The position numbers and the translations under genes are program-made. Below are positions 5,434 through 25,656 of a stretch of 34,668 nt of DNA, in pieces (the stretch's first letter is position 1; every line of letters begins with the position of its first letter). The notes under the pieces were generated by a model. The model had not been told where the DNA came from, did no database searches, and saw only the letters and a program-made list of their open reading frames with translations. The stretch lies in contig JBAZUC010000003.1 of NCBI GenBank assembly GCA_041661585.1, forward strand, positions 1 through 34,668, written 5' to 3'. Source of the DNA: Parcubacteria group bacterium. Lineage in GTDB: Bacteria; Patescibacteriota; Minisyncoccia; Moranbacterales; UBA11712.

Positions 5434-5547
5434 TGAAAGAAAGATATTAAAAGCCGAAGAATCCGAATTTTCGCAGAAATTTCCTACCTGCTGATAGGCG
5501 GGAGTTTGATTTCAAGAAAATTTGAATCTTCGGCGATTTTTATTGAA

Positions 5548-7716: not shown

Positions 7717-7752
7717 TTTTGTTTTCGCCCCCGAAAATTAGAGATTATTTAT

Positions 7753-8302: not shown

Positions 8303-8324
8303 CAAAAAACCCGTCAAGCGGGCA
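8303..8324 (-). terminator. Rho-independent terminator ending the radical SAM/A24 operon
   Basis: The minus strand reads GCCCGCUUGACGGGUUUUUU: a short GC stem (CCCG/CGGG plus a G-U pair) followed by U6. It starts 45 nt after the stop at 8369. Confidence 0.4.
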
Positions 8325-8368: not shown

Positions 8369-9373
8369 TCATCGAGTCACTAATTGCGCAAAGAAGGAAA
8401 ACATCGCTCCCCTAAAAATCATCGTTGCGATAACGCCAGCCAGCAGCCAAATCGCAAAGGGCATGCTTTTTTCATCTTTATTTTTTTGCACGTAAGCAAG
8501 GAGGATGAAAATTGGGCTGAAGAAGAGGGAAAAGAGAATGGAGTGCTTGACCAACGCCAGGATGCTTGCGATGTTTTGAGACGAACTAAAAAATCCGCTC
8601 AACCAAAAATACGGAATGATCGCGAGATAAATCAGAACCAAAATCCACGTCTTTTCCATAAGCCTCTTGAAATAGCTAAAACTTCTGGAGAGGCCTACGA
8701 ATATCAGGACGAGCCACACATTTCCAACTTGCTGATTTCCGCTGATATTCATCACTGAACCCAGCTTGAATCTCATTAGCTGAAAAATAAAAATAATCAT
8801 GAAGAAAATAACAACTGTTTTAACCAGAGTTATGTAATTCTTCCTGATATAACCGATCGATCGACCGAGTATTCCGGCTTCACCCCCAAACTTCAGAGAC
8901 GATGTATCCAGCTCTTTAAAAAAGAAATACAAACTCCGCAGGATCAGAAAAATAAATGCGAAAGTAAAAACATTGAGCAGCAGCGCCAGAGACGGGAAAT
9001 GTGGAAAGGCGCCATTGGAATAATATTTCAGGGGAAGCAATAAAGAAAAAACAAAAAAAAGCTTCGCGTCTCCAGCAGCCCACAGCTTAAAATGCCAGAG
9101 AAGATAGCCAACCGCCAAAGAGATCAGGCTGTTTATGGCAATATCGATAAAAAAATTTACCGAAAAAGCAGACGAAAAATTTCCTGCCCAAACAGCGTCA
9201 GGAAAGAAAGAAGACAGCTTGAACCACAGAAAAAGCATGAGATAACCAAAAACACCCCAGAGCAACCCTGCTTTGATCCATTTGTTCTTGATTTTTCCGC
9301 TCCGGAAATCCTGATAACTGGTGATGGCTCCAATGAAGAACAGCGCCGGTAAAAAGATAAGTTCAATGATCAT
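8369..9373 (-). CDS. A24-family (prepilin/preflagellin peptidase-type) aspartic peptidase-like polytopic membrane protein with an extra C-terminal TM domain
   Basis: Two Asp motifs as in TadV/CpaA/FlaK-type A24 peptidases: ITSYQDFRSGKIKN (D-x-R-x-G-x-I-x-N) and WAAGDAKLF (GxGDxKL-like). 334 aa and hydrophobic throughout. Confidence 0.6.
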   Translation of the reverse strand: MIIELIFLPALFFIGAITSYQDFRSGKIKNKWIKAGLLWGVFGYLMLFLWFKLSSFFPDAVWAGNFSSAFSVNFFIDIAINSLISLAVGYLLWHFKLWAAGDAKLFFVFSLLLPLKYYSNGAFPHFPSLALLLNVFTFAFIFLILRSLYFFFKELDTSSLKFGGEAGILGRSIGYIRKNYITLVKTVVIFFMIIFIFQLMRFKLGSVMNISGNQQVGNVWLVLIFVGLSRSFSYFKRLMEKTWILVLIYLAIIPYFWLSGFFSSSQNIASILALVKHSILFSLFFSPIFILLAYVQKNKDEKSMPFAIWLLAGVIATMIFRGAMFSFFAQLVTR

Positions 9374-9390
9374 GGATCATATATATCATC

Positions 9391-10320
9391 CTATTTAACG
9401 CATTTGAATTCTCCCCATCCATAATTTTTCACGTAATTTTTATAAACTCCTTCGCAAACATCCACATACCGGCATTTGATGCATACTTTGCCTTTTGTCT
9501 TGTAGGGTATGTTCGATATTTCCCTGATTTTTTTATCCTTTTCAATCAAGCGAATCTCGCCGAAGCCTATATGGGGAACAAGTTTTTTAGAAAAACACAA
9601 AGGGAGGTCAAGGATCGACAAATAATGATACTCCGCGCTGATGTTGGATACCAAGAGTTCCGGCTTGTTGCAAACTATTTTCTCGATCTCTCTCGCCAGA
9701 TCGCTGTATTTCGGCATGAGCTCGAAAAAATCTTTTTCCATATTCTCACCGCGCGGCTGGACAACCAACAGAGAGACATGATCCACCATGAATTGTTTCA
9801 GATATTTCAAAAAGCTTTCCATGTGAAGATAATTTTTCTTATTGACAACATGACTGATCAATATTTTCGACAGTCTATGCCTCTGATCGGAAATGTTGGT
9901 CAGTCCCCTAACAGTTTGGTCAAAACTTCCCGGCGCCCTGGTCAGAAATTCGTGTATACTTTTTTCATGTCCGTGCAGTGAAATAATGAACTCATTGACA
10001 CCGGCTGAAATCAGATCCAGGCAGAAATTTTTATACGCATATCGACGACCATTGCTGATGACCGCTATTTTTTTGAACCCCACTTTTTTTGCGTGCTTGA
10101 CGTATTTGATCAAATCCGGATTGAGCGTAGGTTCGCCGGAAGCAAATATGACCCTGTCGATGTTTTTGTTTTCATTGAGGACGCTGTAAACTCTTTTTTT
10201 GAACTTTTCAACGCTGACGCGCCTCGCCTCCCTGTCCGATTCCATACAAAAACGGCAGAGATTATTGCACATAAACCCCGTCGGAATAGTTAAATTTTTT
10301 TCGACAAGCTTTTCTATCAT
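9391..10320 (-). CDS. Radical SAM protein, paralog group 1, with C-terminal CxxCx5C auxiliary-cluster motif
   Basis: Motifs CNNLCRFC, ASGEPTLNPDL, SNGRRYAYKNF and SLHGH. The tail is CIKCRYVDVCEGVYKNYVKNYGWGEFKCV. ATGA start/stop overlap with the upstream gene. Confidence 0.85.
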   Translation of the reverse strand: MIEKLVEKNLTIPTGFMCNNLCRFCMESDREARRVSVEKFKKRVYSVLNENKNIDRVIFASGEPTLNPDLIKYVKHAKKVGFKKIAVISNGRRYAYKNFCLDLISAGVNEFIISLHGHEKSIHEFLTRAPGSFDQTVRGLTNISDQRHRLSKILISHVVNKKNYLHMESFLKYLKQFMVDHVSLLVVQPRGENMEKDFFELMPKYSDLAREIEKIVCNKPELLVSNISAEYHYLSILDLPLCFSKKLVPHIGFGEIRLIEKDKKIREISNIPYKTKGKVCIKCRYVDVCEGVYKNYVKNYGWGEFKCVK

Positions 10321-11294
10321 TTGAATCGCTTTTTTTGCTTAGACGAGAGATAAACCGGCTTCAAATCGGAAAGAGGATGGATTGCGGCATAATTTCTCCA
10401 GACCCCATTGCAATATTTTTCCAGATCGCAAAGAAGGCATTGCGGAGCCTTTGTTTTGCCATCCGCTGAGAAAATCTTGGTTTCGATTATCTTATTTTGG
10501 TGATCGGCGAAAGATTTTTCGGAAATTTCCATGCATTGGACCGGATATTTCCACCAATCCCCGATACAAAGTGGCAGACCGCAATAGGGATTCATAATCG
10601 TAAAGTTCAACTTTTTTCCAAGAAGAAGCGCTTTTTTCACATAAGGACTGATAGCGCCATATCTCGGCACGATATTTTTATTTGTCCACGCCCTACCGTT
10701 CGGCTGAACTATGGACAATGAAATATATTTTATCTTCGGAAATTCTTTTCTGACAAAACGCAGATATTCAGGCAAATGCCTATAGGTTTCAGCCGTAACG
10801 ACCGGATTTAGCGTCACGATTATTTTTGCTTCCAACAAATTCTTTATGCCCTTGATGCATTTTTCGAACGAATTTTTTATTCCAAGCGCGCGATCATGCT
10901 GGGCGGGGATATGCGAATGAAAACTCACGAAAGCTCGATTCAGTTTATTTTTTTTCAGTAGCTTCACATAGCCCTCTCGGCTCAGCAGTGTCGCATTTGT
11001 CTGCAATTCGACTACGCGGACTCCCTGCTGTTTTGCGAATCGTATGATTTCAGGCAGATCCTTTCGGAGCGTCGGCTCTCCGCCACTGAGGGATATGGCA
11101 ACATCCGAATATTTTTCGGTCAGGTCGCTAATCTCCTCTTTTATTGAATTGATATCTCTTTCTTTCGGCAAATTATATGACTCGGAAGGAACATTGCAAA
11201 AAGAGCATCGGGCATTGCATTTCGTTCCTACTCGGATCACTGGCAAAGACATTATTCGGCTGAATTTTTGCTTTGTTGGCTTAGTGGTTTTCAT
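10317..11294 (-). CDS. Radical SAM protein, paralog group 2, with C-terminal CxxCx5C motif
   Basis: Motifs CNARCSFC, SGGEPTLRKDL, TNATLL and SFHSH. The tail is CLLCDLEKYCNGVWRNY. An alternative ATG lies at 11252. Confidence 0.85.
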   Translation of the reverse strand: MKTTKPTKQKFSRIMSLPVIRVGTKCNARCSFCNVPSESYNLPKERDINSIKEEISDLTEKYSDVAISLSGGEPTLRKDLPEIIRFAKQQGVRVVELQTNATLLSREGYVKLLKKNKLNRAFVSFHSHIPAQHDRALGIKNSFEKCIKGIKNLLEAKIIVTLNPVVTAETYRHLPEYLRFVRKEFPKIKYISLSIVQPNGRAWTNKNIVPRYGAISPYVKKALLLGKKLNFTIMNPYCGLPLCIGDWWKYPVQCMEISEKSFADHQNKIIETKIFSADGKTKAPQCLLCDLEKYCNGVWRNYAAIHPLSDLKPVYLSSKQKKRFK

Positions 11295-12225
11295 CTTCGA
11301 TGATTTTTCTGATTATTTTTTCCTTGGAGACAAAAACAGGATATAACCCTTTCGAGCTGTAATAAACATCCATTGACGTAAGGCCGGCGCAGATCTCATC
11401 GAGCGCGCAGTGTCTGCATTTTTCCGGTTTATCACGGAAAAAATTCCTTTGCACAAGTGTGCCTCTCCCGTCCAGAAAATGGAGCGGCCTTATCTCATCT
11501 TTCACTATTTTTCTGGTTTCCGTCGAAACATGCTCGAAACCAGGCATATAGCAAAGAGGCACTCTTTCTATTCGAAAAGTTTTTCCGGCATCTTCAAACA
11601 CTTTTGCCATTTTGACAAGCTCTATTTCAAAACCATGGAGCGTAGGGATCGTCTTGGTATTTTTCATAGCCCTTTCCGAGGTCGGATCAAGATTGTTGCA
11701 ACTGAAATGACTGACAAAGGGGTATTCAGAAATTATGAATTTCGCGAGCGAACTTAGGTGGTCGGAGTTATATTTATTAAAGGTGATATTGATGTCTGTT
11801 CTTATGCCCTTCTGCTTGGAAAGATTTGTGAGGGTTTTTTTGATGTTTTCAAGTGAATCATCCTTTTTGGCAAGAAAATTCTGGACCTTGGCTCGATGGG
11901 AATATATTGAAACATGTACATGCTTCAGACCTGCCTTGAATAATCCTTCAAGATATCTTTTGTTCGCCGTTTTTTGGGCGTTGGTTATCATCTTTGTCTC
12001 AATCTTCTTTTTTGTGCAGTATCGAATCAGATCCGCGAGTTTTGGATATTTCGTCGGTTCTCCTCCAGTCAGAATAACTCCATCATATCCTCCTTCTATA
12101 TAACCATCAACAATCTTTTTCGCCTTGGAAAGCGGCATATCTTTCCATCCCGATGGAGGATTTGAACAAAAAAGACATTCTTGGTCGCACTCCCTTGTTA
12201 TTTGAATGTATGCAAAATTTGCCAT
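11281..12225 (-). CDS. Radical SAM protein, paralog group 2, with C-terminal CxxCx5C motif
   Basis: Motifs CDQECLFC, TGGEPTKYPKL, TNAQK and SIYSH. The tail is CRHCALDEICAG. Confidence 0.85.
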   Translation of the reverse strand: MANFAYIQITRECDQECLFCSNPPSGWKDMPLSKAKKIVDGYIEGGYDGVILTGGEPTKYPKLADLIRYCTKKKIETKMITNAQKTANKRYLEGLFKAGLKHVHVSIYSHRAKVQNFLAKKDDSLENIKKTLTNLSKQKGIRTDINITFNKYNSDHLSSLAKFIISEYPFVSHFSCNNLDPTSERAMKNTKTIPTLHGFEIELVKMAKVFEDAGKTFRIERVPLCYMPGFEHVSTETRKIVKDEIRPLHFLDGRGTLVQRNFFRDKPEKCRHCALDEICAGLTSMDVYYSSKGLYPVFVSKEKIIRKIIEDENH

Positions 12226-12235
12226 ACGCGTTTGT

Positions 12236-13423
12236 CTATTTTATTTTTTTTATCACACGCACCTTATCTCCTTTTGAGATAGGCTTCAGGCTCTTGAATC
12301 CGTTTTCTCTTATATAGTCGATCTGGGCTCCATCACATTGGCTATTCGAGCTGCAAATCTGACATTTCTTGCTTTTAAGAAAATACCGATGCTGAATGAA
12401 AAAATTCAGGAAATCTTGTATGCAAATTATTCCGGATTTTCTAATAGTCTTCGACTTTTGCCCAATTTTTATTTTCCCCAGGCACATCGCAATTTTTCTT
12501 GAAGATAACTGTCCCTTTTCCCTAAATTCGATGAGGTCACCGCAAAACATTTCCAAACTGCAATAGCCGCACCTTTCACCCCGGCATTCCATCATCTTCC
12601 CTTTCTTGAGATAAGCTTCGAACATATCCTTGCGCCCGTTGATCTCATCATACAACTTGTTGGGATGCTGTATCAATTCTTCGAATCCGTCAAGGTATTG
12701 AGGAGGAAACCTGTTCGTCCAGATATAAACATCCGGGCGGCGTGAAAATGCAAGCGCCTTTTTTATTCGAGGCATGGCTTTTTCCATGTCATAGAACAAT
12801 TCACCGCGATCTTCCCACGCTCGACCAAAAGGAATGATTTGGAGGAGATCAAATTCGTGTATCCCCAAAGCCACAAAATATTCAACTATTTCATCAAGCT
12901 GCTCACAATTTTGCTTATTTATGACAATATCTTGATTGACTATCAAGCCCGGAATCTCAAGAGCGTTCTTGAGGCCGGTTATAGCCTGCCGAAATGACCC
13001 CCTCACTCCCGTAAGCTTATCATGAAGTTTATCATTGTGCCCATGTATGGAAAAAGTGATCTCATTCACTCCCGCAGCGACAGAAGCGAGGAGGAAATTG
13101 TTGTACGCGAACATCCGGCCGTTCGTTATCACCTGAATATGCTTATAGCCCATTTTTTTTGCCATTTTTACCGCCTCCAAAAACTGCGGGTGGATAGTGG
13201 CCTCGCCTCCGCTCAAAACCACTTGGTCTATGTGTTGATCTCTCCCCTGCTGGAGATTTTTTCTTATTGAACTAAGCGGCAAAGCAGTGCCATTTTGAGC
13301 GTCTTTGTCAAGACAGAACATGCAATTGTTATTGCACCTCCGGGTCAGCCGTACCCAATGTTTCTTTTTGGTAGCTGCTTTTTCCTTTTCTTCTTTCTTT
13401 TTCCGTTCAAGGTCTTTTTTCAT
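12236..13423 (-). CDS. Radical SAM protein, paralog group 1, with two CxxCx5C motifs (extended C-terminus)
   Basis: Motifs CNNNCMFC, SGGEATIHPQF, TNGRMFAYNNF and SIHGH. Has CGYCSLEMFC plus a second CQICSSNSQC in an extension of about 80 aa. Confidence 0.85.
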   Translation of the reverse strand: MKKDLERKKKEEKEKAATKKKHWVRLTRRCNNNCMFCLDKDAQNGTALPLSSIRKNLQQGRDQHIDQVVLSGGEATIHPQFLEAVKMAKKMGYKHIQVITNGRMFAYNNFLLASVAAGVNEITFSIHGHNDKLHDKLTGVRGSFRQAITGLKNALEIPGLIVNQDIVINKQNCEQLDEIVEYFVALGIHEFDLLQIIPFGRAWEDRGELFYDMEKAMPRIKKALAFSRRPDVYIWTNRFPPQYLDGFEELIQHPNKLYDEINGRKDMFEAYLKKGKMMECRGERCGYCSLEMFCGDLIEFREKGQLSSRKIAMCLGKIKIGQKSKTIRKSGIICIQDFLNFFIQHRYFLKSKKCQICSSNSQCDGAQIDYIRENGFKSLKPISKGDKVRVIKKIK

Positions 13424-15778: not shown

Positions 15779-16692
15779 TTTTTTCGCCTTGAAATTTTTA
15801 ACATTGAAACCGCCTTGAACTCGTCCCACCCAAATTTTTCCGGATATTCTCGCCAAGAACCTTCGCACACCTTGTCATAATCACATTTCTTGCATTGAGG
15901 CCCCTTCGCCTTGCCTTCATTTCGGCGAGCCTCAGTGAAATTCTCAACTACCGACTTAAAATCATAGATTTTCGTGGATGGAATGATATTTTCGGCGATA
16001 TGATCTTCATAGCCACTCATAAAACAATACGGAATCGCTTCGGTCATGCACGCTATTCCCTTCTTTTTCCCGATATCGAGCCCTTTTTTCGCGAACGGTT
16101 CAACCAGAGTCATGCGCGGAACGATGGAATCGAAATTATCCCTCGCGTTGCCGGTAGCGTGAACAAACGCAAATTGATATTGATCAGCACCAAGATTGAT
16201 AAGCAATCGGGCAATTTCCGGAAGATGCCTATAGTTTGATCTGGTAATAACAGTGTTTGTGATAATTTTTTGACCAAGTTTTTTCAAATTCTTGATTCCT
16301 TTCGTAGTCTGGTCGAAACTTCCCTTGGCAGAGGTGAGATAGTCATGAAGCTCGGCGCAATGTCCATGCAAAGCGGGTGAAAATTCATTTGCGCCCGCCT
16401 TAATCGTCTTTTTGCAGAAATCCAAATACGCGAACATCCGGCCATTGGTTTGAATCTGAATCGTTTTGAATTTCAATTCTTTGGCAAACCCCACAAGTTC
16501 CAAAAAATCGGATCGGATCGTCGGCTCGCCGCCCGTAAATACAATGCCTTGGCAATCACGGGAAGCCTCTTTCATTTCTTCTTTAACTTTGGAAGTTTTT
16601 TTATCTCTGAATTCGGTTCGTTTTCTCCCCTGCACGCAAAATAGGCAGTGATTATTGCAGGAAAAGCCTATTTTTATATCAGCTTTTTTCAT
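15775..16692 (-). CDS. Radical SAM protein, paralog group 1, with C-terminal CxxCx5C motif
   Basis: Motifs CNNHCLFC, TGGEPTIRSDF, TNGRMFAYLDF and ALHGH. The tail is CKKCDYDKVCEGSWREYPEKFGWDEFKAV. ATGA overlap with the upstream gene. Confidence 0.85.
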   Translation of the reverse strand: MKKADIKIGFSCNNHCLFCVQGRKRTEFRDKKTSKVKEEMKEASRDCQGIVFTGGEPTIRSDFLELVGFAKELKFKTIQIQTNGRMFAYLDFCKKTIKAGANEFSPALHGHCAELHDYLTSAKGSFDQTTKGIKNLKKLGQKIITNTVITRSNYRHLPEIARLLINLGADQYQFAFVHATGNARDNFDSIVPRMTLVEPFAKKGLDIGKKKGIACMTEAIPYCFMSGYEDHIAENIIPSTKIYDFKSVVENFTEARRNEGKAKGPQCKKCDYDKVCEGSWREYPEKFGWDEFKAVSMLKISRRKK

Positions 16693-17594
16693 TTTTTTGC
16701 CACATTGATTAAAAATTCAGTCAAGGTGCGATCCACTTTCATCGTAATTTTCAGAATTTCCTCCGGAAATGTCCTTTTCAAGATGTATTTCGGGTCAATG
16801 TTCAGGGGAAAATCGGAAACAGCGCGCCAGTCCGCAAGATTATGCACATTGCCTAATTTTAGCATATTGCCATATTTTCTGATATGTCTGTCGAGAAAAT
16901 AGTTTCCAAAATAAACATCCCCGTTGCAATCAACCGTAAGCGCGGAGCTGTGGAGAGGCACTTGATTTTTTTGCTCCAAATTTTCGAGTCGTATTCTTGT
17001 CTTCGCGCTTGCAATGACTTTTCTCATTTCATCAAAACATTTCCGAAGACTCCTGATTTCCTTCAGGGACCATTTAACATAGTAAGCCGGCAAAAATTTG
17101 AATCTCCTGATCCCTTTCCCGCTGAGGTCGACAAAAATACTTTTTGCTGAATCCGTTTTCCCCGGCAGTAGGTTTATGGTTACGACCAGAGAAGGCAATC
17201 TGGTGCAAATATTGAGAAAAAGACGGCTGCTGAAAATTTCTTTGCGCACCGAACTGACAATCAGCTTCAAGTTGGGTCTTTTCTGAAAAAAATCAACTTT
17301 TTTTCTGTCAAGGAGCAGGCCGTTGGTCACAAGGTCGAAATCGACGTTCGCATATCTTTTTTGAGTTCGATTCACAATCCTTCTTATAACTTCAAAATTG
17401 AGCAGTGGTTCGCCACCGAAAAATCTTATGAGCGGCCTTTGAGAAGAATCATTTTTTCCCAAAAAAAGAGAAACAGCCCTCCAGGCAGTTTCAAAGTTCA
17501 TATTTGTATTGCTTTTCTCCACTTGGCAGTGAGCGCATCTGAGATTGCATCGCTTTGTGACGACCAAGATCAGAATTTTTTTGTCAGACCTCAT
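16689..17594 (-). CDS. Radical SAM peptide-maturase-like protein lacking a complete SPASM Cys set (possible HxsC counterpart)
   Basis: Motifs CNLRCAHC near the N-terminus, FFGGEPLLNF and VDCNGDVYFGN (pre-SPASM-like), but no CxxCx5C. It is the first gene downstream of the His-Xaa-Ser peptide. Confidence 0.75.
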   Translation of the reverse strand: MRSDKKILILVVTKRCNLRCAHCQVEKSNTNMNFETAWRAVSLFLGKNDSSQRPLIRFFGGEPLLNFEVIRRIVNRTQKRYANVDFDLVTNGLLLDRKKVDFFQKRPNLKLIVSSVRKEIFSSRLFLNICTRLPSLVVTINLLPGKTDSAKSIFVDLSGKGIRRFKFLPAYYVKWSLKEIRSLRKCFDEMRKVIASAKTRIRLENLEQKNQVPLHSSALTVDCNGDVYFGNYFLDRHIRKYGNMLKLGNVHNLADWRAVSDFPLNIDPKYILKRTFPEEILKITMKVDRTLTEFLINVAKK

Positions 17595-17691
17595 TATCCC
17601 TTTTGCTTTTCATTATTAGCTGGAGCTTATTCAAAAGAATGCGTGAAAGCGTTTTGAGTCTTTCTGAAGACGGCGGATAAAAAAGGGCAGA

Positions 17692-17964
17692 TCAATAGGC
17701 GCCGTGAGAACCGTGGGAGCCGTGAGCGCCGTGAGAACCGTGGGAGCCGTGAGAACCGTGGGAGCTATGCGAACTATGAGCGCAAGTGGCGCTGGCGATG
17801 TTCGCATTCGGTTTCATAAGCCCGGACAGAGCAGCGGCACTGGCAATCGCCACTATTCCCATTCTTGCTACGCTTGATTTGTTGATACTACCCTCTTCAC
17901 TTGAAAGAAAGGCTTTTATTTGTTTTTTGATTCTGGGAATCTTTGCTTTTTTTGTTTGTGCCAT
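17692..17964 (-). CDS. hxsA: His-Xaa-Ser repeat peptide (HxsA-like candidate precursor), 90 aa
   Basis: MAQTKKAKIPRIKKQIKAFLSSEEGSINKSSVARMGIVAIASAAALSGLMKPNANIASATCAHSSHSSHGSHGSHGSHGAHGSHGSHGAY. The track start at 17973 is TTG; I prefer the ATG at 17964. Has a basic N-terminus, one hydrophobic segment, a single Cys, and then nine H-x-S/A triplets. Confidence 0.7.
   Translation of the reverse strand: MAQTKKAKIPRIKKQIKAFLSSEEGSINKSSVARMGIVAIASAAALSGLMKPNANIASATCAHSSHSSHGSHGSHGSHGAHGSHGSHGAY
17698..17778. repeat. Coding tandem repeat (period 9/18 nt) specifying the nine His-Xaa-Ser/Ala triplets
   Basis: The plus strand reads GCGCCGTGAGAACCGTGGGAGCCGTGAGCGCCGTGAGAACCGTGGGAGCCGTGAGAACCGTGGGAGCTATGCGAACTATG, with repeated GCCGTGAGAACCGTGGGA units. 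Locally GC-rich. Confidence 0.85.
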
Positions 17965-17996
17965 ATGAGTCAATTTTTATTAATTGTTATTTTTAA

Positions 17997-18962
17997 TTAG
18001 CTTTTTGCAGCATCTTCCAGAGCTTTCAGGCGATTATTGTCATAATACATATCACATCTAACCTTGCCTGTGTCCAGGATGGAACGGCAATCAAAATTTT
18101 GGTCAAAAAACAATTTGTATATGGGATACTGGTTCCTGCGGGAAATCTCTTCAAGCAGATCCGGATTATTTTCCCTGACTGCTCTCACGAAATGGGACAG
18201 CTGGACACACTCATACCAGAGATCTTCCCCGACTGTCGGATCCTGAGGAGAGGGTATGAATTTTCCCTTTTGGTCATCACAGACCGCAAAATCTTTTTTG
18301 TTGACGGCCAGACAAATTGACCGAGCCAGTGATCCATTTTGAAAATCCGCGCAGCTTTGTTCTGTTTTGGCGGTGACAAGCGCGCTGCACAAATTTTCGC
18401 AGTCTTTCTTGTCTGAATCCTTGCAAGCCTGCACATATTCAGGCAAACATTGTCCGGAACGCATAGCCGGTAAAACGGAATCTTTAAATAATTTGAATTG
18501 GAACTCGCAATGAGTTTCAACGAGCGGATCAGGAATTTTTTGGCATTCTTCGATTTTTCCATTTTTTATGGCGGAACAGGTCAAATACTTTTCGGTTTCG
18601 AATGGATTCATTCGGAACATATCGGGAATCGCCTGCGACATGGCCACTGCGTCAAAATTCGCTATTCCATCATATGTTTCCTCGCATTTTCCTTTTTCAG
18701 CAGTAAGATAGTCTGTTATCTCTTGAATGCTTTTCCCCTTTATCTTCGACAATTCATCGGCAGAAACAACGGCCTTGCTCTTTTTTTCATAAGACAGGGA
18801 ATGAGGGCTGTTGTACGATGCCTTCTTCGCAACTTTCTCATCCAATGCCTTTTTGCGGATCTGCTGAACCTGCCAGCTCCCAAAGATCACCGCGGCTATC
18901 GCCAAAAGGCAGATGATCGCCACAATAATGATCTTTTTGTTTTTGTTTTCTTCTATTATCAT
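17997..18962 (-). CDS. Membrane-anchored Cys-rich protein (N-terminal TM helix, 14 Cys in the predicted external part)
   Basis: 321-aa ORF. Starts MIIEENKNKKIIIVAIICLLAIAAVIFG, followed by a soluble region with 14 Cys. I do not recognise a family. Confidence 0.6.
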   Translation of the reverse strand: MIIEENKNKKIIIVAIICLLAIAAVIFGSWQVQQIRKKALDEKVAKKASYNSPHSLSYEKKSKAVVSADELSKIKGKSIQEITDYLTAEKGKCEETYDGIANFDAVAMSQAIPDMFRMNPFETEKYLTCSAIKNGKIEECQKIPDPLVETHCEFQFKLFKDSVLPAMRSGQCLPEYVQACKDSDKKDCENLCSALVTAKTEQSCADFQNGSLARSICLAVNKKDFAVCDDQKGKFIPSPQDPTVGEDLWYECVQLSHFVRAVRENNPDLLEEISRRNQYPIYKLFFDQNFDCRSILDTGKVRCDMYYDNNRLKALEDAAKS

Positions 18963-19019
18963 TTTTTTAAAATAAATTGTAAAAAAATTTTATTGAAAAT
19001 CTTTGTTTTTGTCAACCAT

Positions 19020-20513
19020 CTATTTGGGAGGAATTTTCTGACTGCATTCGATTTCTCTTCTTGCCCATCTTTCTAATATTTTTTTTGTTTTGTTGCTCTG
19101 CAAATATTCAAAAATCATATCAAAAATGGATTTTGAAATAATGCACCGCATGCTATTTGGCTGTTGACTGAAAATGTTTCCCGTTTCGGCATAGTTATAG
19201 ATCGGACACACCCCGCAATAGGGCTGATATGCGCAATGGGCACACCCGGCCTGACAACTCGTTTCGGAAGCCAAGCACATCCCTTTTAATGTTGGGTTGT
19301 CTATTATCTCCGAATAACTGTTTTTTGTGACATCTCCCAGCTTAAACATATCTTCTCCCGCATATCCCATCATTCTTCCCTCGTCGCAGGTATATATGCT
19401 TCCGTCATAATCATAGGCCAATTGGCCGATGCCCGCTCCGCAAGGCGAACGCAATTCCAGATAATTGATGTCTTCATCCTCAAGTATCTTCGATGCCATC
19501 ATTGCGGCTGTCCGCTCATGAAATTTTTTTCCGGATTTATTCAGCTCAAAAATATATTCCAGCGCCTTTTGGTAAAATTTCAGATATTCCTCCGTAGTAT
19601 AGCCTATTTTCGACCAGATCTTTCCTGCTATCCCGAGCGGACTCAAGGGCCTCAAAAATATCGCTTCAAATCCCCACTTGAGATATTCATCAACAATTTC
19701 TTTTGGATGATCCAGCGAGAACCGGCTGACGGTCACAATCGCTCCCGGCTGATGATAATATATTTTCCCTTTCACCTTTTTCCGTTCCAATTGCCTGTAT
19801 TTTTCAAGGGCGATATTGAGCCATTTGGTGGTGCTCTCATAGCTGCCTTGCGCCAGAAACGGACGATTTTTGTTTTGAATCTCCTTCGGACCATCCAAAG
19901 ATGAGCAAAGCGCCACGTGATTGTTGAAAAAGAACTCCAATTTTTCTTTGTCCATCAATGAAAAGTTCGATACCAGCCGCAATTCCAAATTCTTTTTTTC
20001 GGCCTTGTTCTTCTCGTTGGCGTATTCAACAATAAACTTCACAATCGGCCAATTCAGAAGCGGCTCTCCGCCCTGAAATTCTATGGCGATATTTTTGTTT
20101 GGAGTGGTAAAGATGAAATCGACGGTCTGCTTCGCGGTTGCCAGATCCATATCATATTTCATATCATCCACTTTTTTCGAGCTCGTCTGGCAATATATGC
20201 AATTATAGTTGCAGCGCAAGGTCACGACAATGATGTGAAGACTCGGACCTCCGAGGAGATTCCCTCGTTTCTTCGCGTATTTTTCAATGTACGTTTCAAA
20301 ATTTATCTTATCCCGAATGAAATTTTTTTTCAGCAATTCGCGATACTTCTTGTTTTTCGGATTTATTTTCCCCTCGAGATATTGCTTGAATTCCTTCTCT
20401 TCAAGCAACGCATAATCTCCCACGTCGTTCGTTAAGAGGTATTCCTTACCCAATTTTTTATATCGAAAAAATCCGACTTTCGAGTGATTCAGTTTATTCG
20501 TATTGAAATCCAT
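19020..20513 (-). CDS. hxsB: Radical SAM/SPASM peptide maturase (HxsB-like)
   Basis: 497 aa. Has an N-terminal extension of about 100 aa, then CNYNCIYC and FQGGEPLLNW. The SPASM region reads CGAGIGQLAYDYDGSIYTC...CQAGCAHCAYQPYCGVCP...RC. Confidence 0.8.
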   Translation of the reverse strand: MDFNTNKLNHSKVGFFRYKKLGKEYLLTNDVGDYALLEEKEFKQYLEGKINPKNKKYRELLKKNFIRDKINFETYIEKYAKKRGNLLGGPSLHIIVVTLRCNYNCIYCQTSSKKVDDMKYDMDLATAKQTVDFIFTTPNKNIAIEFQGGEPLLNWPIVKFIVEYANEKNKAEKKNLELRLVSNFSLMDKEKLEFFFNNHVALCSSLDGPKEIQNKNRPFLAQGSYESTTKWLNIALEKYRQLERKKVKGKIYYHQPGAIVTVSRFSLDHPKEIVDEYLKWGFEAIFLRPLSPLGIAGKIWSKIGYTTEEYLKFYQKALEYIFELNKSGKKFHERTAAMMASKILEDEDINYLELRSPCGAGIGQLAYDYDGSIYTCDEGRMMGYAGEDMFKLGDVTKNSYSEIIDNPTLKGMCLASETSCQAGCAHCAYQPYCGVCPIYNYAETGNIFSQQPNSMRCIISKSIFDMIFEYLQSNKTKKILERWARREIECSQKIPPK

Positions 20514-20535
20514 AATCTTCCAACGTCTTAATTTC

Positions 20536-20736
20536 TCACATGCCTTTCTCGAGGCTCAAAATATAGTTGCAGAATTCTCGCTCGATAACATCCTGCGTGC
20601 CGTTCTCTTTTGGCTTGATCGAGATCAAATAATACTTTCCTTTTTCTGACAGTCGGAAACCGGCAAGTCCTTTATAATCTTTTATTGCCTGCTCGATCGC
20701 CTCTCGAACATATATTTTTCTGTTTAATTTTACCAT
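20536..20736 (-). CDS. Small HxsD-like protein (66 aa)
   Basis: MVKLNRKIYVREAIEQAIKDYKGLAGFRLSEKGKYYLISIKPKENGTQDVIEREFCNYILSLEKGM. The track ORF extends to 20919, overlapping the upstream gene. I prefer the ATG at 20736. The sequence resembles the N-terminal two thirds of the neighbouring HxsD-like protein and ends in an F-x-N-Y-x-L-x-x-E motif. Confidence 0.45.
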   Translation of the reverse strand: MVKLNRKIYVREAIEQAIKDYKGLAGFRLSEKGKYYLISIKPKENGTQDVIEREFCNYILSLEKGM

Positions 20737-20749
20737 GCTGATTTTGTCG

Positions 20750-21214
20750 CTATTTTTTCTTTGCCTTTTTTTCTCTTTTCTTTGGAGCCGGCTGCGCATC
20801 TTCCCAGGAAGTGGCAATTCCCAGCGGGTCATCGCGCCAATCGCCGGCAGACTGATCATTTTCAACGCTTGGCTGTTCCGATAAATTTTCCGGCAAGCTG
20901 GAAACCAGCGCGGACGCAACGATATATTCCCTAATCTTCTGGTTGTTTCTCGCTATTTCCACTCGCAGAAGAAAATTCAGCAGTTCATTGAGAAACTCGC
21001 CCTCCAAGGCTTCTAATTTCTTTTTATCCGCTTTTTCTTTGCTCCTAAGCCGAACCATTATTTCTTTTTCAGGATCTCCGTCCAAATATATGTAGGCCCT
21101 GTCAATAAAAACATAAGCAGCGCTGAAAATAGCTTCCAGCGGATAATTTTTCGTTTTCAGCCAAAACACCACATCTTGATCTTTTGGGCTGATTTTTCTT
21201 TTTGGTAGCTGCAT
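20750..21214 (-). CDS. hxsD: HxsD-like protein (154 aa) with a charged C-terminal tail
   Basis: YPLEAIFSAAYVFIDRAYIYLDG...MVRLRSKE...LEGEFLNELLNFLLRVEIARNNQKIREYIVASAL. The ELLNFLLRVE segment resembles the LLNDYxLRE signature I recall for the HxsD family. Confidence 0.55.
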   Translation of the reverse strand: MQLPKRKISPKDQDVVFWLKTKNYPLEAIFSAAYVFIDRAYIYLDGDPEKEIMVRLRSKEKADKKKLEALEGEFLNELLNFLLRVEIARNNQKIREYIVASALVSSLPENLSEQPSVENDQSAGDWRDDPLGIATSWEDAQPAPKKREKKAKKK

Positions 21215-25453: not shown

Positions 25454-25527
25454 AATATTTGTGGTATTGACTAATAAGCTAGTATGTCAATCTAGCATAT
25501 AGCATCAAAAAATGTCAAGAAGTTTAT

Positions 25528-25656
25528 CAAATCCCAACAATCAAGCACCATTAATCAAATAATAACCAATTTCCAAGTCCCAACAACCAAAATTGGTTAT
25601 TCGGTCATTGATTATTGCGATTTATTTGGATATTGGTTTTTGATGTTTGAGATTTG
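25528..25656. repeat. Long AT-rich imperfect palindrome in the ftsA-ftsZ spacer
   Basis: The core is a perfect 11-bp stem, ATAACCAATTT (25561-25571) with AAATTGGTTAT (25589-25599). The outer arms CAAATCCCAACAATCAAGCACCA... and ...TTTTTGATGTTTGAGATTTG are imperfect complements with indels. Confidence 0.5.

What the first reader, a model, noticed from the sequence alone, without database searches (positions are those of the whole stretch)
8369..21214. Expanded His-Xaa-Ser (Hxs)-type peptide-maturation operon with nine radical SAM genes
Seen directly: fourteen minus-strand ORFs run from 21214 down to 8369. Gaps between them are at most 97 nt, or they overlap. Four junctions are ATGA start/stop overlaps (10317-10320, 14840-14843, 15775-15778, 16689-16692). 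The run ends at a hairpin plus T6 at 8303-8324.

Nine ORFs carry a CxxxCxxC radical SAM motif: CNYNCIYC, CNLRCAHC, CNNHCLFC, CNNGCLFC, CNSRCGYC, CNNNCMFC, CDQECLFC, CNARCSFC and CNNLCRFC. The only small ORF among them ends in nine consecutive His-Xaa-Ser/Ala triplets.

Established knowledge: Haft and Basu (2011) defined in silico a four-gene His-Xaa-Ser system. It consists of the HxsA repeat peptide, HxsB (rSAM/SPASM), HxsC (rSAM) and HxsD. As far as I know its product and function remain unknown.

Inference: this locus is a strongly expanded relative. It has two HxsD-like proteins, HxsB-like and HxsA-like genes, eight further rSAM enzymes, a Cys-rich membrane protein and an A24-type peptidase. 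There is no ABC exporter and no classical RiPP protease. About 13 kb devoted to one peptide in what looks like a streamlined genome suggests a heavily modified, functionally important product.
Basis: partly seen in the sequence, partly recalled or inferred. Interest (0 to 1): 0.9.

Follow-up and report, generated by a model that had tools for sequence, protein, structure and literature searches.

The report
Expanded His-Xaa-Ser radical-SAM peptide operon
A candidate-phyla-radiation bacterium spends about 13 kb on one small histidine-rich repeat peptide, nine radical-SAM enzymes and a dedicated membrane protease; this is a widespread but undescribed expanded form of the HXS system, which was recently shown in E. 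coli to block phage DNA entry.

Summary
Fourteen tightly packed minus-strand genes span 21214-8369. They carry nine CX3CX2C motifs and four ATGA overlaps, include one 93-aa ORF ending in nine H-x-S/A triplets, and end at a hairpin followed by T6.

The Hxs reading is supported by curated NCBIfam models. HxsD, the HxsD-like protein, HxsB and HxsA4 all score above their cutoffs. Six further rSAM proteins hit HxsC4/HxsC best but score below cutoff.

The architecture recurs in CPR, Elusimicrobia and other MAGs:
- Each paralog has 1:1 orthologs at 44-74% identity, while paralogs within the window are only about 25-36% identical.
- Of 80 HxsB loci, 44 carry at least 3 extra rSAM genes.
- The last gene is a GxGD (A24-like) peptidase with invariant catalytic-type Asp residues. 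In 39 of 39 informative metagenome loci it directly follows Hxs-type rSAM genes.
- The precursors share a near-invariant F-L-x-x-E-E-G leader followed by a hydrophobic helix.

The four-gene E. coli HXS system is an antiphage system (Nat Commun 2026).

Verdict: a new variant of a known kind. The biosynthetic logic is well supported. The chemistry and the biological role (most likely an envelope-level barrier or defence) are inferred.

The parts
20750..21214 (-). HxsD (154 aa)
   Evidence: NCBIfam TIGR03976 scored 64.7 bits against a cutoff of 50. Orthologs at 61-65% identity sit in the same position in L001, L003 and L004.
20536..20736 (-). Short HxsD-like protein (66 aa from Met62; the longest ORF runs up to 20919)
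   Evidence: NCBIfam NF038315 HxsD_rel scored 67.8 bits against a cutoff of 41, over residues 63-124 of the long ORF. Orthologs of 66-70 aa occur in L001, L003, L004 and L007. The gene is present in 46 of 80 HxsB loci.
19020..20513 (-). HxsB, a radical SAM/SPASM maturase (497 aa; CNYNCIYC)
   Evidence: TIGR03978 scored 526 bits against a cutoff of 370. Pfam finds Radical_SAM plus SPASM. The closest homolog, at 73% identity, is in a Candidatus Moraniibacteriota MAG.
17997..18962 (-). Membrane-anchored Cys-rich all-alpha protein (321 aa), function unknown
   Evidence: No Pfam or NCBIfam hit. Syntenic orthologs at 22-48% identity lie between HxsB and HxsA in L001, L003, L004, L007 and L098. About 12 Cys are invariant. 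The family has only 14 representatives among 1.84 billion proteins. The AF2 model has pLDDT 84.5 and is all-helical, with no PDB match.
17692..17973 (-). HxsA4-type precursor peptide (93 aa; the probable start is Met4 at 17964). It has a Lys-rich leader containing AFLSSEEG, then a hydrophobic helix, then nine H-x-S/A triplets and a terminal Tyr.
   Evidence: NF038313 HxsA4 scored 61.8 bits against a cutoff of 55. The triplets are counted. It is the only such ORF in the window. The leader motif F-L-x-x-E-E-G occurs in 58 of 59 related peptides.
16689..17594 (-). rSAM protein (301 aa, CNLRCAHC); HxsB/PapB-like N-terminal half without a SPASM domain
   Evidence: The best NCBIfam hits are PapB at 82 bits and HxsB at 66 bits, both over the N-terminal ~110 residues only. 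Pfam finds Radical_SAM. Orthologs at 41-48% identity hold the same position in related loci.
15775..16692 (-). HxsC-like rSAM paralog 1 (305 aa, CNNHCLFC)
   Evidence: The best hits are HxsC4 NF038332 at 180.6 bits (cutoff 500) and HxsC TIGR03977 at 117.5 bits (cutoff 267.9). This is the most conserved paralog, with orthologs at 70-74% identity.
14840..15778 (-). HxsC-like rSAM paralog 2 (312 aa from Met31, CNNGCLFC)
   Evidence: HxsC4 scored 186.3 bits and HxsC 112.4 bits, both below cutoff. Orthologs are 44-59% identical. An ATGA overlap joins it to the upstream gene.
13407..14843 (-). HemN/HemZ-like rSAM protein (478 aa from Met27, CNSRCGYC)
   Evidence: The best NCBIfam hits are HemZ 161.9, STM4012 158.3, HemW 129 and ChuW/HutW 111 bits, all below cutoff. 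The L001 ortholog is 52% identical.
12236..13423 (-). HxsC-like rSAM paralog 3 (395 aa, CNNNCMFC, with an extra Cys-rich insert)
   Evidence: HxsC4 scored 121.8 bits and HxsC 100.3 bits. Orthologs are 56-61% identical and are sometimes fused into two-domain proteins of 613-702 aa.
11281..12225 (-). HxsC-like rSAM paralog 4 (314 aa, CDQECLFC)
   Evidence: The best hit is HxsC TIGR03977 at 90.1 bits, below cutoff. Orthologs in L003 and L098 are 62-63% identical.
10317..11294 (-). HxsC-like rSAM paralog 5 (325 aa, CNARCSFC)
   Evidence: HxsC4 scored 116.4 bits and HxsC 99.8 bits. Like the other paralogs, it has the C-terminal C-x2-C-x5-C-x-G motif.
9391..10320 (-). HxsC-like rSAM paralog 6 (309 aa, CNNLCRFC)
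   Evidence: HxsC4 scored 224 bits, the highest of the six but below the cutoff of 500. Orthologs in L003 are 50-52% identical.
8369..9373 (-). A24-like GxGD intramembrane aspartyl peptidase (334 aa); proposed leader peptidase for HxsA4
   Evidence: Pfam PF01478 scored 21.3 bits against a gathering score of 26.5. All 11 aligned family members hit only PF01478, with a best E-value of 1.2e-6. D22 and G101-D102 (in SAGDAKLFF) are invariant. The top Foldseek hit is FlaK 3s0x at probability 0.84 and E 0.47. In 39 of 39 metagenome loci with at least 2 kb upstream, the gene follows Hxs-type rSAM genes.
8303..8323 (-). Hairpin plus T6; probable operon terminator
   Evidence: Found by the terminator scan and read directly from the sequence. 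It is a weak 5-bp stem.
21229..22269 (-). Upstream secreted Cys-rich protein (346 aa); possibly associated, membership not established
   Evidence: Homologs at 35-42% identity lie directly upstream of HxsD in L001/L008, L002, L018 and L045. It has no Pfam or NCBIfam family.

Best explanation
This is a complete operon of the HxsA4-type His-Xaa-Ser (Hxs) radical-SAM peptide-maturation system, in the expanded form typical of Patescibacteria (CPR) and some other non-proteobacterial phyla.

Proposed mechanism:
1. The 93-aa precursor is made with three parts: a Lys-rich N-terminal leader (K-I-P-R-I-K-K-x-I-K-A-F-L-S-S-E-E-G-x-I-x-K), a roughly 16-residue hydrophobic helix, and a C-terminal core of nine H-x-S/A triplets ending in Tyr. 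This part is shown.
2. In the cytoplasm the leader is bound by HxsD and the short HxsD-like protein, acting with the rSAM enzymes. HxsB (SPASM), a truncated HxsB-like enzyme, six old and mutually divergent HxsC-like enzymes, and a HemN-like enzyme then each install a distinct radical modification on the repeat core. This is inferred. The chemistry is unknown; plausible options are His-to-Ser side-chain crosslinks of the triceptide type and C1 additions.
3. The precursor sits in the membrane N-in/C-out, like a prepilin. The dedicated GxGD (A24-like) peptidase, encoded as the last gene, removes the leader at the cytoplasmic face. The cut would fall either after the invariant E-E-G or at the [K/R]-x-[G/A/S] site just before the hydrophobic helix. 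This is inferred.
4. The modified His-rich tail ends up on or outside the cell membrane, next to the membrane-anchored Cys-rich protein. This is inferred.
5. By homology with the E. coli HXS system, the most likely role is an envelope-level barrier against phage or foreign DNA entry.

My sub-confidences:
- Hxs-type multi-rSAM maturation of this peptide: about 0.9.
- The A24-like protein is a system component: about 0.9.
- The A24-like protein is the leader peptidase: about 0.55.
- The role is antiphage or envelope defence: about 0.35.
For: Family assignment. Curated Hxs models pass their cutoffs for HxsD, HxsD-like, HxsB and HxsA4. HxsC4/HxsC are the best hits for six paralogs.

Intact enzymes. 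All six paralogs keep CX3CX2C, the G-E of the SAM motif and a C-terminal C-x2-C-x5-C-x-G motif, so they look like working enzymes.

Old, maintained expansion. Paralogs are about 25-36% identical to each other, but each has 1:1 orthologs at 44-74% identity, in conserved order, in L001, L003, L004 and L098.

Recurring architecture. Of 80 species-representative HxsB loci, 63 have at least 1 extra rSAM gene, 44 have at least 3, and 28 have at least 5, even with 10-kb flanks and truncated contigs.

Peptidase. Invariant D22 and G-D102, exclusive PF01478 hits and FlaK as top structural hit support the assignment. It is the last gene after Hxs-type rSAM genes in 39 of 39 informative metagenome loci and in 3 of 3 context look-ups. 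Several of its homologs lie on the same contigs as HxsB homologs.

Leader. F-L-x-x-E-E-G is present in 58 of 59 peptides across phyla. It is followed by K/R at +15, G/A/S at +17 and a hydrophobic stretch. The C-terminal residue is W, Y or C in 53 of 59.

Functional precedent. E. coli HxsDBCA blocks phage DNA entry. Its HxsA is N-terminally processed, modified in an HxS repeat and exported, and HxsC binds HxsD (PMC13128918).

Chemical precedent. rSAM/SPASM triceptide synthases make His-C2 to X3-C-beta crosslinks on HAA, HNR and HTK motifs (PMC11499958).

Island-like behaviour. A syntenic relative (L018) has FtsZ at 86%, FtsA at 79% and DAGK at 72% identity, but HxsB at 52%, HxsA at 41% and a different cassette composition. 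A MAG with a different genomic context (L008) carries the more similar cassette.
Against: - No paralog reaches the HxsC (267.9) or HxsC4 (500) cutoffs; the maxima are 117.5 and 224 bits.
- The window's peptidase scores below the Pfam gathering score (21.3 against 26.5). The structural match is weak (E 0.47, model pLDDT 68), and a PDB sequence search found nothing.
- The leader matches no Flp or pilin Pfam family even at E <= 10, so the prepilin analogy rests on topology and motif only.
- Neither cleavage nor modification has been observed.
- The HxsA4 core has no Lys or Arg and no peptidoglycan-binding domain. E. coli HxsA does, so the proposed electrostatic DNA-binding mechanism does not transfer directly. 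CPR cells also lack a Gram-negative periplasm (my own knowledge).
- The locus lies among housekeeping genes (NrdDGR, FtsZ/FtsA), not in a recognisable defence island.
- PADLOC 2023 has no Hxs models, so the defence reading has no independent HMM support.
- An A-S-A / A-N-A motif after the hydrophobic helix in this clade could equally be a signal peptidase I site.
Confidence: 0.55

Rival explanations
1. The locus makes a diffusible RiPP natural product rather than a defence effector. The extended signal-like N-terminus is cut by signal peptidase I at the A-x-A site after the hydrophobic helix. This releases a heavily modified His-rich peptide of about 31 residues (TCAHSSH...HGAY). The peptide would act as a metallophore or metal chaperone (Ni/Zn/Cu), or as an antimicrobial or host-interaction factor of an episymbiotic CPR cell.
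For: - The core is 9 His, 9 Ser and 7 Gly with no basic residues, which is typical of metal-binding His-rich sequences.
- An A-S-A / A-N-A / S-A-A motif follows the hydrophobic helix in this clade.
- Related loci carry varied tailoring genes such as aminotransferases, PvlArgDC, DUF483 and methyltransferase fragments, as RiPP clusters do.
- HxsB is closest to the PapB, SCIFF and nif11 RiPP maturases after HxsB itself.
- The locus sits among housekeeping genes.
Against: - The A-x-A motif is not conserved in Elusimicrobia-type peptides, which have ...LLAQ-S... instead, whereas the hydrophobic helix and leader are universal.
- No exporter, immunity gene or receptor is present in the locus.
- The only experimentally studied relative is a cell-autonomous envelope effector (PMC13128918).
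- This model gives no clear task to the dedicated GxGD peptidase.
Confidence: 0.25
2. HxsA4 is a pilin-like subunit. After the A24-like peptidase cuts it, the hydrophobic helix drives assembly into a filament or surface layer that displays rSAM-modified His-rich tails. This would be a new post-translationally crosslinked surface polymer.
For: - The layout is prepilin-like: a basic leader, G/A/S just before a hydrophobic helix, and a small C-terminal domain.
- The system has a dedicated A24-family peptidase.
- Type IV pilus genes (T2SSF, N_methyl pilins, PilD-type A24) lie next to the Hxs locus in L003, L004 and L006.
Against: - The leader has no Pfam Flp or N_methyl similarity even at E <= 10, and it lacks the +5 Glu of type IV pilins.
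- The operon encodes no assembly ATPase or platform protein, and there are no pilus genes in this window.
- The adjacency to pilus genes is seen only in some loci and may simply reflect synteny.
Confidence: 0.08
3. The rSAM genes are unrelated housekeeping enzymes (cofactor, heme or tRNA modification) that merely lie next to a small Hxs core. On this view the 'nine-rSAM operon' is an accident of gene order.
For: - The HemN-like protein resembles HemZ, HemW and ChuW, and the HxsC-like proteins give weaker hits to MoaA, NirJ and AhbD.
- The window does contain one genuine housekeeping rSAM gene, NrdG2 at 195.5 bits against a cutoff of 131, just outside the locus.
Against: - None of the eight proteins reaches the cutoff of any cofactor or tRNA family, whereas NrdG does reach its own.
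- The best hits are HxsC4 and HxsC.
- The genes overlap translationally, with ATGA junctions.
- The same paralogs recur in the same order next to HxsD, HxsB and HxsA in many unrelated contigs and phyla.
Confidence: 0.02

Closest known systems
E. coli HXS antiphage system (HxsD-HxsB-HxsC-HxsA; Li et al., Nat Commun 2026, PMC13128918; defined in silico by Haft & Basu 2011)
   Same: Both have HxsD, an HxsB rSAM/SPASM enzyme, HxsC-type rSAM enzymes with a C-terminal CxxC auxiliary motif, and a substrate with tandem His-Xaa-Ser repeats and an N-terminal export or processing region. The gene order starts D-B in both. N-terminal processing of HxsA is part of maturation.
   Different: - This locus has 14 genes rather than 4.
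- It has six HxsC-like paralogs (none reaching the HxsC cutoff), a truncated HxsB-like enzyme and a HemN-like rSAM enzyme.
- It has a second, short HxsD-like protein.
- The precursor is 93 aa, of the HxsA4 type, with nine repeats, no peptidoglycan-binding domain and no basic residues in the repeats.
- A Cys-rich membrane protein and a dedicated GxGD peptidase are added.
- The host is a CPR bacterium without a Gram-negative periplasm.
- Li et al. report 99.7% of systems in Pseudomonadota and more than 99.8% with four genes. That does not hold for the HxsB relatives found here.
NCBIfam variant Hxs families: HxsA4 (NF038313), HxsA3 (NF038309), HxsC4 (NF038332), HxsD_rel (NF038315)
   Same: The peptide passes the HxsA4 cutoff and the short protein passes HxsD_rel. 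The HxsA4 and HxsA3 models cover the conserved leader from model position 1-2. This peptide class and the second HxsD-like protein are therefore already catalogued.
   Different: The six paralogs score only 58.7-224 bits against the HxsC4 cutoff of 500. No NCBIfam or Pfam model covers the Cys-rich protein. No NCBIfam model covers the A24-like peptidase. I found no paper describing the multi-rSAM architecture or its peptidase.
Triceptide (three-residue cyclophane) RiPPs made by rSAM/SPASM synthases (HaaB, YhhB, HtkB, XyeB, GrrM/OscB)
   Same: Both have repeated Omega1-X2-X3 motifs with His at position 1 and a SPASM-type rSAM maturase. His-C2 to X3-C-beta crosslinks are experimentally established on HAA, HNR and HTK motifs (PMC11499958).
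   Different: HxsB scores far below the cutoffs of these families: YhhB 58.8 against 445, GrrM 58 against 310, XyeB 50.6 against 450. The only measured Hxs modification is +8 Da, not the -2 Da expected for a crosslink. The present system adds eight more rSAM enzymes.
Prepilin/preflagellin peptidase systems (PilD, TadV/CpaA, FlaK; MEROPS family A24) acting on class III signal peptides
   Same: The peptidase is a polytopic membrane protein with the two conserved Asp residues (D22 and G-x-G-D-like AGD102). FlaK is the top structural hit. The substrate has a basic leader followed by a small residue and a hydrophobic helix.
   Different: - The Pfam score is below threshold for the window protein.
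- It has an extra conserved C-terminal membrane region of about 190 aa.
- It has no methyltransferase or A24_N domain.
- The substrate leader has a different, near-invariant F-L-x-x-E-E-G motif and matches no pilin family.
- The gene is genomically dedicated to rSAM peptide-maturation loci rather than to pilus or archaellum loci.

Membership tests
His-Xaa-Ser (Hxs/HXS) system | HxsB rSAM/SPASM maturase (TIGR03978) | tested here: met
   Scored 526 bits against a cutoff of 370, with full-length alignment 15-484 / 3-466. Pfam also hits SPASM.
His-Xaa-Ser (Hxs/HXS) system | HxsD small protein (TIGR03976, LLNDYxLRE family) | tested here: met
   Scored 64.7 bits against a cutoff of 50. The sequence contains ELLNFLLRVE at the motif position.
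His-Xaa-Ser (Hxs/HXS) system | Substrate protein with tandem His-Xaa-Ser repeats, encoded in the operon | tested here: met
   Nine consecutive H-x-S/A triplets. HxsA4 NF038313 scored 61.8 bits against a cutoff of 55. The canonical HxsA model TIGR03979 gave no hit at E <= 0.01, so the peptide belongs to the variant A4 class.
His-Xaa-Ser (Hxs/HXS) system | HxsC rSAM partner (TIGR03977, or the HxsC4 variant NF038332) | tested here: not met
   The six paralogs have HxsC4 or HxsC as best hits, but all score below cutoff. HxsC4 scores run 58.7-224 against 500, and HxsC scores 80.6-117.5 against 267.9. They are HxsC-like, not equivalogs.
His-Xaa-Ser (Hxs/HXS) system | Four-gene D-B-C-A organisation and a peptidoglycan-binding domain in HxsA (canonical form of Li et al. 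2026) | tested here: not met
   The order here is D, D-like, B, Cys-rich protein, A, eight rSAM genes, peptidase. The 93-aa peptide has no Pfam domain.
His-Xaa-Ser (Hxs/HXS) system | Antiphage activity by blocking DNA entry; +8 Da modification of an HxS repeat | not testable with these tools
   These are experimental properties (PMC13128918). PADLOC 2023 contains no Hxs models.
Peptidase family A24 (GxGD prepilin/preflagellin peptidases) | Match to Pfam PF01478 at the gathering score | tested here: inconclusive
   The window protein scores 21.3 bits against a gathering score of 26.5, E 3.9e-4. All 11 aligned family members hit PF01478 as their only family, with a best E-value of 1.2e-6. Some homologs carry a precomputed PF01478 hit or are named prepilin peptidase or CpaA by their source.
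Peptidase family A24 (GxGD prepilin/preflagellin peptidases) | Two catalytic Asp residues, the second in a G-x-G-D-type motif | tested here: met
   D22 (in SYQD) and G101-D102 (in SAGDAKLFF) are invariant across 11 sequences sharing 32-45% identity. Catalysis itself was not tested.
Peptidase family A24 (GxGD prepilin/preflagellin peptidases) | FlaK/PilD-like fold | tested here: inconclusive
   The AF2 model has pLDDT 68.3. FlaK 3s0x_B is the top Foldseek hit and the only specific one, but it is weak: probability 0.84, E 0.47, TM 0.43 on the target. A profile search of PDB sequences found nothing.
Type IV / Flp pilins (class III signal-peptide substrates) | Recognisable pilin N-terminus (Pfam N_methyl or Flp_Fap; G at -1, E at +5) | tested here: not met
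   Five leaders were scanned against Pfam at E <= 10 and none hit a pilin family. The consensus has K/R at +15, G/A/S at +17 and then a hydrophobic stretch, but no conserved Glu.
Triceptide (3-residue cyclophane) rSAM/SPASM RiPPs | Maturase belongs to the XyeB, GrrM/OscB or YhhB families; precursor carries Omega1-X2-X3 motifs | tested here: not met
   The motif requirement is met formally (H-x-S). HxsB, however, scores only 50.6-58.8 bits against cutoffs of 310-450. The resemblance is a chemical analogy only.
HemN-family (class C) radical SAM enzymes | Equivalog match to HemN, HemZ, HemW or ChuW | tested here: not met
   HemZ scored 161.9 against 321.4, STM4012 158.3 against 380, HemW 129.1 against 205.4, and ChuW/HutW 111.4 against 400. 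The protein belongs to the superfamily but is not an equivalog of any of these.

The most novel reading that the evidence does not exclude
The HxsA3/A4-type systems may be a previously unrecognised class of radical-SAM-built cell-surface structures. In this reading, a prepilin-like peptide is processed by its own GxGD protease. Its extracellular His-Xaa-Ser tail, of 5 to more than 50 repeats, is converted by up to about ten different radical SAM enzymes into a ladder of crosslinked or C-modified units. The result is a membrane-anchored or polymerised 'brush' that gates DNA or phage entry, or binds metal, at the surface of CPR, Elusimicrobia and other bacteria. The rSAM paralog set and the repeat number would diversify in an arms race.
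Probability: 0.15. Interest if true: 0.85.

Novelty: new variant of a known kind. Interest (0 to 1): 0.66.

Why it matters
The Hxs system was an in-silico orphan for 15 years. It has only just been tied to a function: blocking phage DNA entry in E. coli. Its radical chemistry is still unsolved and its reconstitution is stalled by an insoluble substrate.

This locus and its many relatives add four things:
- The four-gene proteobacterial form is a minimal version of a much larger and more diverse family that is abundant in CPR, Elusimicrobia and other uncultivated phyla.
- These forms use short precursors of about 90 aa with a near-invariant leader. These may be easier substrates for biochemistry.
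- A dedicated GxGD intramembrane peptidase is a fixed component. This points to how the unexplained "non-canonical N-terminal processing" of HxsA-type substrates can be achieved.
- Six to ten mutually divergent rSAM enzymes act on one repeat peptide, which is unusually many for a single substrate.

For CPR biology, spending about 13 kb of a very small genome on one envelope peptide suggests an important surface or defence trait.

Tried and rejected
- A genome-contig scan with the single HxsB protein found no relative. Repeating it with an alignment worked.
- The word-indexed homolog search for the Cys-rich protein returned only a 97% twin. Exhaustive phmmer found just 14 representatives.
It ran with the phmmer hits and gave a confident model, but with no PDB match, so no function could be assigned.
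- PADLOC gave only generic viperin-level rSAM similarity.
- Pfam at E <= 10 on five leaders gave no Flp or pilin hit, so I do not file the peptide as a pilin.
- A profile search of PDB sequences with the peptidase family found nothing.
- Folding the 97-nt gap between the peptide gene and the next gene showed no attenuator-like structure (z = 0.54).
- The viral-contig scan found only six full-length HxsB relatives, at 33-38% identity, and none close to this type.
- The Haft & Basu 2011 paper (PMC3133131) is not held. Its content is cited through Li et al. and from my own knowledge.
- I considered and rejected recent tandem duplication as the origin of the expansion, because paralogs are about 25-36% identical while orthologs are 44-74% identical.
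- I considered and rejected housekeeping cofactor rSAM enzymes, because none reaches a family cutoff and the synteny is conserved.

Full report
**1. Observation**

The region 8369-21214 contains 14 consecutive minus-strand ORFs. The largest intergenic gap is 97 nt. ATGA start/stop overlaps are present at the four stated positions. Two of these require internal Met starts: Met31 of the 342-aa ORF and Met27 of the HemN-like ORF. Both starts are plausible.

The 93-aa ORF ends in HSS HSS HGS HGS HGS HGA HGS HGS HGA Y. It is the only H-x-S repeat ORF in any frame of the window. A hairpin followed by T6 lies at 8323-8303. It is weak, and terminator-like sites in the region are not enriched over shuffled sequence. 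The second ORF most likely starts at Met62 (66 aa), which matches its orthologs and the extent of its HMM match.

**2. Family assignment**

NCBIfam gives these matches above the curated cutoffs:
- HxsD TIGR03976: 64.7 bits (cutoff 50).
- HxsD-like NF038315: 67.8 bits (cutoff 41).
- HxsB TIGR03978: 526 bits (cutoff 370).
- HxsA4 NF038313 for the peptide: 61.8 bits (cutoff 55).

Six rSAM proteins have HxsC4 (NF038332) or HxsC (TIGR03977) as their best hits among 18,950 models. All score below cutoff: HxsC4 58.7-224 against 500, and HxsC 80.6-117.5 against 267.9.

One rSAM protein of 301 aa resembles only the N-terminal half of HxsB/PapB and has no SPASM domain. One is HemN/HemZ-like, also below cutoff. 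All nine pass Pfam Radical_SAM, and only HxsB has SPASM.

The six HxsC-like paralogs all keep four features: the CX3CX2C motif, the G-E of the SAM-binding motif, a conserved Asn, and a C-terminal C-x2-C-x5-C-x-G motif. They therefore look like working enzymes.

As a control, the window's tenth rSAM gene (4654-5433), just outside the locus, clearly passes as NrdG2 at 195.5 bits against a cutoff of 131. This shows what a housekeeping rSAM gene looks like in the same test.

**3. What is known**

Li et al. (Nat Commun 2026, PMC13128918) showed the following for E. coli HxsD-B-C-A:
- It is a broad antiphage system that blocks phage DNA entry.
[quoted passage not shown] It is N-terminally processed in a non-canonical way that depends on HxsB, HxsC and HxsD.
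- HxsA carries a +8 Da modification in its last repeat and acts in the periplasm.
- HxsC binds HxsD.

They report 99.7% of systems in Pseudomonadota and more than 99.8% with four genes. I found no paper on expanded or CPR-type Hxs systems, and none linking a prepilin-type peptidase to an rSAM peptide system. NCBIfam, however, already holds models for HxsA2, HxsA3, HxsA4, HxsC4 and HxsD_rel, so curators know that variant forms exist.

**4. Relatives and conservation**

HxsB has more than 6000 homologs at E <= 1e-30. The closest (73% identity) is from a Candidatus Moraniibacteriota MAG, and many others come from Patescibacteria, Omnitrophota and Spirochaetes. The window's FtsZ is 86% identical to that of a "Patescibacteria group" MAG. 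The window is therefore almost certainly from a CPR genome.

Three contigs carrying the closest HxsB relatives (L001, L003, L004) show the same order: HxsD, a 66-69-aa HxsD-like protein, HxsB, a Cys-rich protein of about 300 aa, a peptide of 86-106 aa, and then 7 to at least 10 rSAM genes, some of them fused into two-domain proteins.

BLAST mapping shows 1:1 orthologs at 44-74% identity for the paralogs, in conserved order. Paralogs within the window are only about 25-36% identical to each other. The expansion is therefore old and maintained, not a recent duplication.

A scan of species-representative genomes with an HxsB alignment found 565 relatives. Among the best 80 loci (CPR lineages, Elusimicrobia, Spirochaetes, Omnitrophota and others), 63 have at least 1 extra rSAM gene, 44 have at least 3, and 28 have at least 5. 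This is despite 10-kb flanks and many truncated contigs. In addition, 46 have the short HxsD-like gene and 55 have an HxS-repeat peptide.

The expanded form is thus common outside Proteobacteria. With eight extra rSAM genes, the window is at the rich end of the range but is not unique.

**5. The last gene is a dedicated GxGD peptidase**

The 334-aa polytopic protein scores below threshold on Pfam Peptidase_A24: 21.3 bits against 26.5. Several other lines support the assignment:
- Its roughly 190 homologs are named prepilin peptidase or CpaA by some sources.
- All 11 aligned members hit only PF01478.
- D22 and G101-D102 (in SAGDAKLFF) are invariant at 32-45% identity.
- The top structural match, and the only specific one, is the GxGD protease FlaK. 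This match is weak: probability 0.84, E 0.47, with a model pLDDT of 68.

The linkage to Hxs loci is strong. All three context look-ups place the gene directly after a run of rSAM genes. Several homologs lie on the same contigs as HxsB homologs. The gene occurs in 15 of the 80 genome loci within the flank limit.

In a scan made from the peptidase side, 39 of 39 metagenome loci with at least 2 kb upstream carry HxsC- or HxsB-like rSAM genes just upstream on the same strand. The peptidase is almost always the last gene of the run. L098, for example, reads D, D-like, B, Cys-rich, A, five rSAM genes, peptidase, and one further rSAM gene after the peptidase.

**6. The precursor**

Across 59 peptides from many phyla, 58 carry F-L-x-x-E-E-G (E, E and G at 58, 57 and 56 of 58). 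This motif is preceded by L-P-K-I-K-K-D-I-K. It is followed by K-I-x-K-K, then K/R at +15, G/A/S at +17, a hydrophobic stretch of about 14 residues, a variable linker and then the HxS repeats (median 17 H-x-S/A triplets, maximum 55). The last residue is W, Y or C in 53 of 59.

The NCBIfam HxsA4 and HxsA3 models cover this leader. The layout is a basic N-terminus, a small residue, a hydrophobic helix and a short C-terminal domain. Topologically this is prepilin-like, with the N-terminus inside and the C-terminus outside, and it fits a GxGD peptidase that cuts at the cytoplasmic face.

The leader nevertheless matches no Flp or pilin Pfam family even at E <= 10. I therefore treat this as an analogy, not as family membership. 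In the window's clade an A-S-A / A-N-A motif follows the helix and could be a signal peptidase I site. That motif is not conserved in Elusimicrobia-type peptides.

**7. Other components**

The Cys-rich protein has an N-terminal membrane helix, about 12 invariant Cys and syntenic orthologs. Its family has only 14 representatives among 1.84 billion proteins. The AF2 model is confident (pLDDT 84.5) and all-helical, but has no PDB match. It is probably an extracytoplasmic, disulfide-stabilised partner, but its function remains unknown.

A secreted Cys-rich protein of 346 aa lies directly upstream of HxsD (21229-22269). It has homologs in that same position in at least four other loci. It may belong to the system, but this is not established.

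**8. Mechanism and role**

Shown:
- The gene content.
- The intact catalytic motifs.
- The conserved order and orthology.
- The dedicated peptidase.
- The conserved leader.

Inferred:
- HxsD-type adaptors present the leader to the rSAM enzymes in the cytoplasm.
- Each of the nine rSAM enzymes makes a distinct modification on the repeat core.
- The GxGD peptidase removes the leader.
- The modified tail is displayed at, or released from, the outer face of the membrane.

On the chemistry, H-x-S is formally an Omega1-X2-X3 motif. Triceptide rSAM/SPASM enzymes are known to make His-C2 to X3-C-beta crosslinks (PMC11499958). HemN-like enzymes often transfer C1 units (my own knowledge). The only measured Hxs modification, however, is +8 Da, which a simple crosslink does not explain.

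On the role, homology to the E. coli system makes an envelope barrier against phage DNA the leading hypothesis. It is weakly supported by island-like behaviour. The syntenic relative L018 has FtsZ at 86%, FtsA at 79% and DAGK at 72% identity, but HxsB at 52%, HxsA at 41% and a different cassette. A MAG with a different genomic context has the more similar cassette.

Several points count against a direct transfer of the E. coli mechanism. The core has no basic residues and no peptidoglycan-binding domain. CPR cells lack a periplasm. The locus is flanked by housekeeping genes. A secreted metal-binding or bioactive RiPP remains a serious rival.

**9. Verdict**

The locus is a new variant of a known kind. 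The Hxs core and the HxsA4 peptide class are catalogued. Three things are, as far as I could find, undescribed:
- The multi-rSAM architecture.
- The dedicated GxGD peptidase.
- The Cys-rich partner.

Interest is fairly high for rSAM/RiPP enzymology, phage defence and CPR biology. It is tempered because the system family is known and because both the function and the chemistry here are inferred.

Noticed in passing
window 24248-28309 compared with L018 3383-7540; Hxs genes compared with L018 9184-18640: A syntenic Patescibacteria MAG shares housekeeping neighbours at 61-86% identity (FtsZ 86, FtsA 79, DAGK 72). Its Hxs genes, at the same chromosomal site, are only 34-61% identical, and its cassette differs (no Cys-rich gene, an extra HxsB-like gene). 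A Moraniibacteriota MAG (L008) with a different upstream context has the more similar cassette (HxsB 73%, paralog 1 74%). This suggests cassette exchange or fast divergence.
   Followed up: partly
window 21229-22269 and 22400-22978 (minus strand): Two secreted or membrane-anchored proteins share an N-terminal Ig-like-looking domain. The larger has Cys-rich 'W-x-W-x-C' repeats. Its homologs lie directly upstream of HxsD in L001/L008, L002, L018 and L045. Related loci L003 and L004 have PKD / Ig_Rha78A_N proteins at that position. Neither protein has a Pfam or NCBIfam family.
   Followed up: partly
window 23090-24103 (minus strand): A 337-aa protein with no Pfam or NCBIfam hit carries Cys motifs (NEGCIFECP..., CKHNCYDCGYC). 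It lies between the secreted proteins and FtsZ. The syntenic relative L018 gave no match to it.
   Followed up: no
window 4654-8205 (minus strand): An anaerobic ribonucleotide reductase set lies immediately downstream of the locus: NrdG2 (195.5 bits, cutoff 131), NrdD and NrdR. NrdG is a tenth rSAM gene in the window and is unrelated to the Hxs locus. Its presence is consistent with an anaerobic lifestyle that suits many oxygen-sensitive rSAM enzymes.
   Followed up: partly
window 18987-19015 (minus strand), in the gap between HxsB and the Cys-rich gene: This is the best sigma-70-like match in the region (TTGACA-17-TAAAAT, 11 of 12). It could be an internal promoter boosting the Cys-rich gene and the precursor peptide relative to the enzymes. 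It is a consensus match only.
   Followed up: no
L003 12582-13195; L006 880-8140; L007 12172-12885; the contig carrying P0124: Related loci carry extra tailoring genes among the rSAM genes: aminotransferases, a pyruvoyl-dependent arginine decarboxylase (PvlArgDC), DUF483 proteins and methyltransferase fragments. They also have fused two-domain rSAM proteins of 613-702 aa. The enzyme complement is therefore modular.
   Followed up: no
L076 11486-12791; L042 11509-12141; L053 11585-12214; L009: Some loci encode two or three tandem HxsA-type precursors. Counts of H-x-S/A triplets reach 55. Alternative C-terminal endings (…HGQW, …HSSY, …GGWC, …CPRC) define peptide subtypes.
   Followed up: partly
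searches compared with PMC13128918 section 10: The published statement that 99.7% of HXS systems are in Pseudomonadota, and that more than 99.8% have four genes, does not fit the HxsB relatives found here. These number over 6000 proteins and include 565 loci in species-representative genomes. The best 80 loci are almost all CPR, Elusimicrobia, Spirochaetes or Omnitrophota. The published survey was probably limited because it searched with the canonical HxsA.
   Followed up: partly
L088-L167: The A24-like peptidase family comes in two size classes, about 300-345 aa and about 380-425 aa. The N-terminal catalytic half is the better conserved part, and many hits cover only residues 1-150.
   Followed up: no
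window 635-3020 (minus strand): A ComEC-type competence protein (Competence + DUF4131) and a metallo-beta-lactamase-fold protein lie at the window's low end. DNA-uptake machinery is thus encoded about 5 kb from the locus. No link was tested.
   Followed up: no
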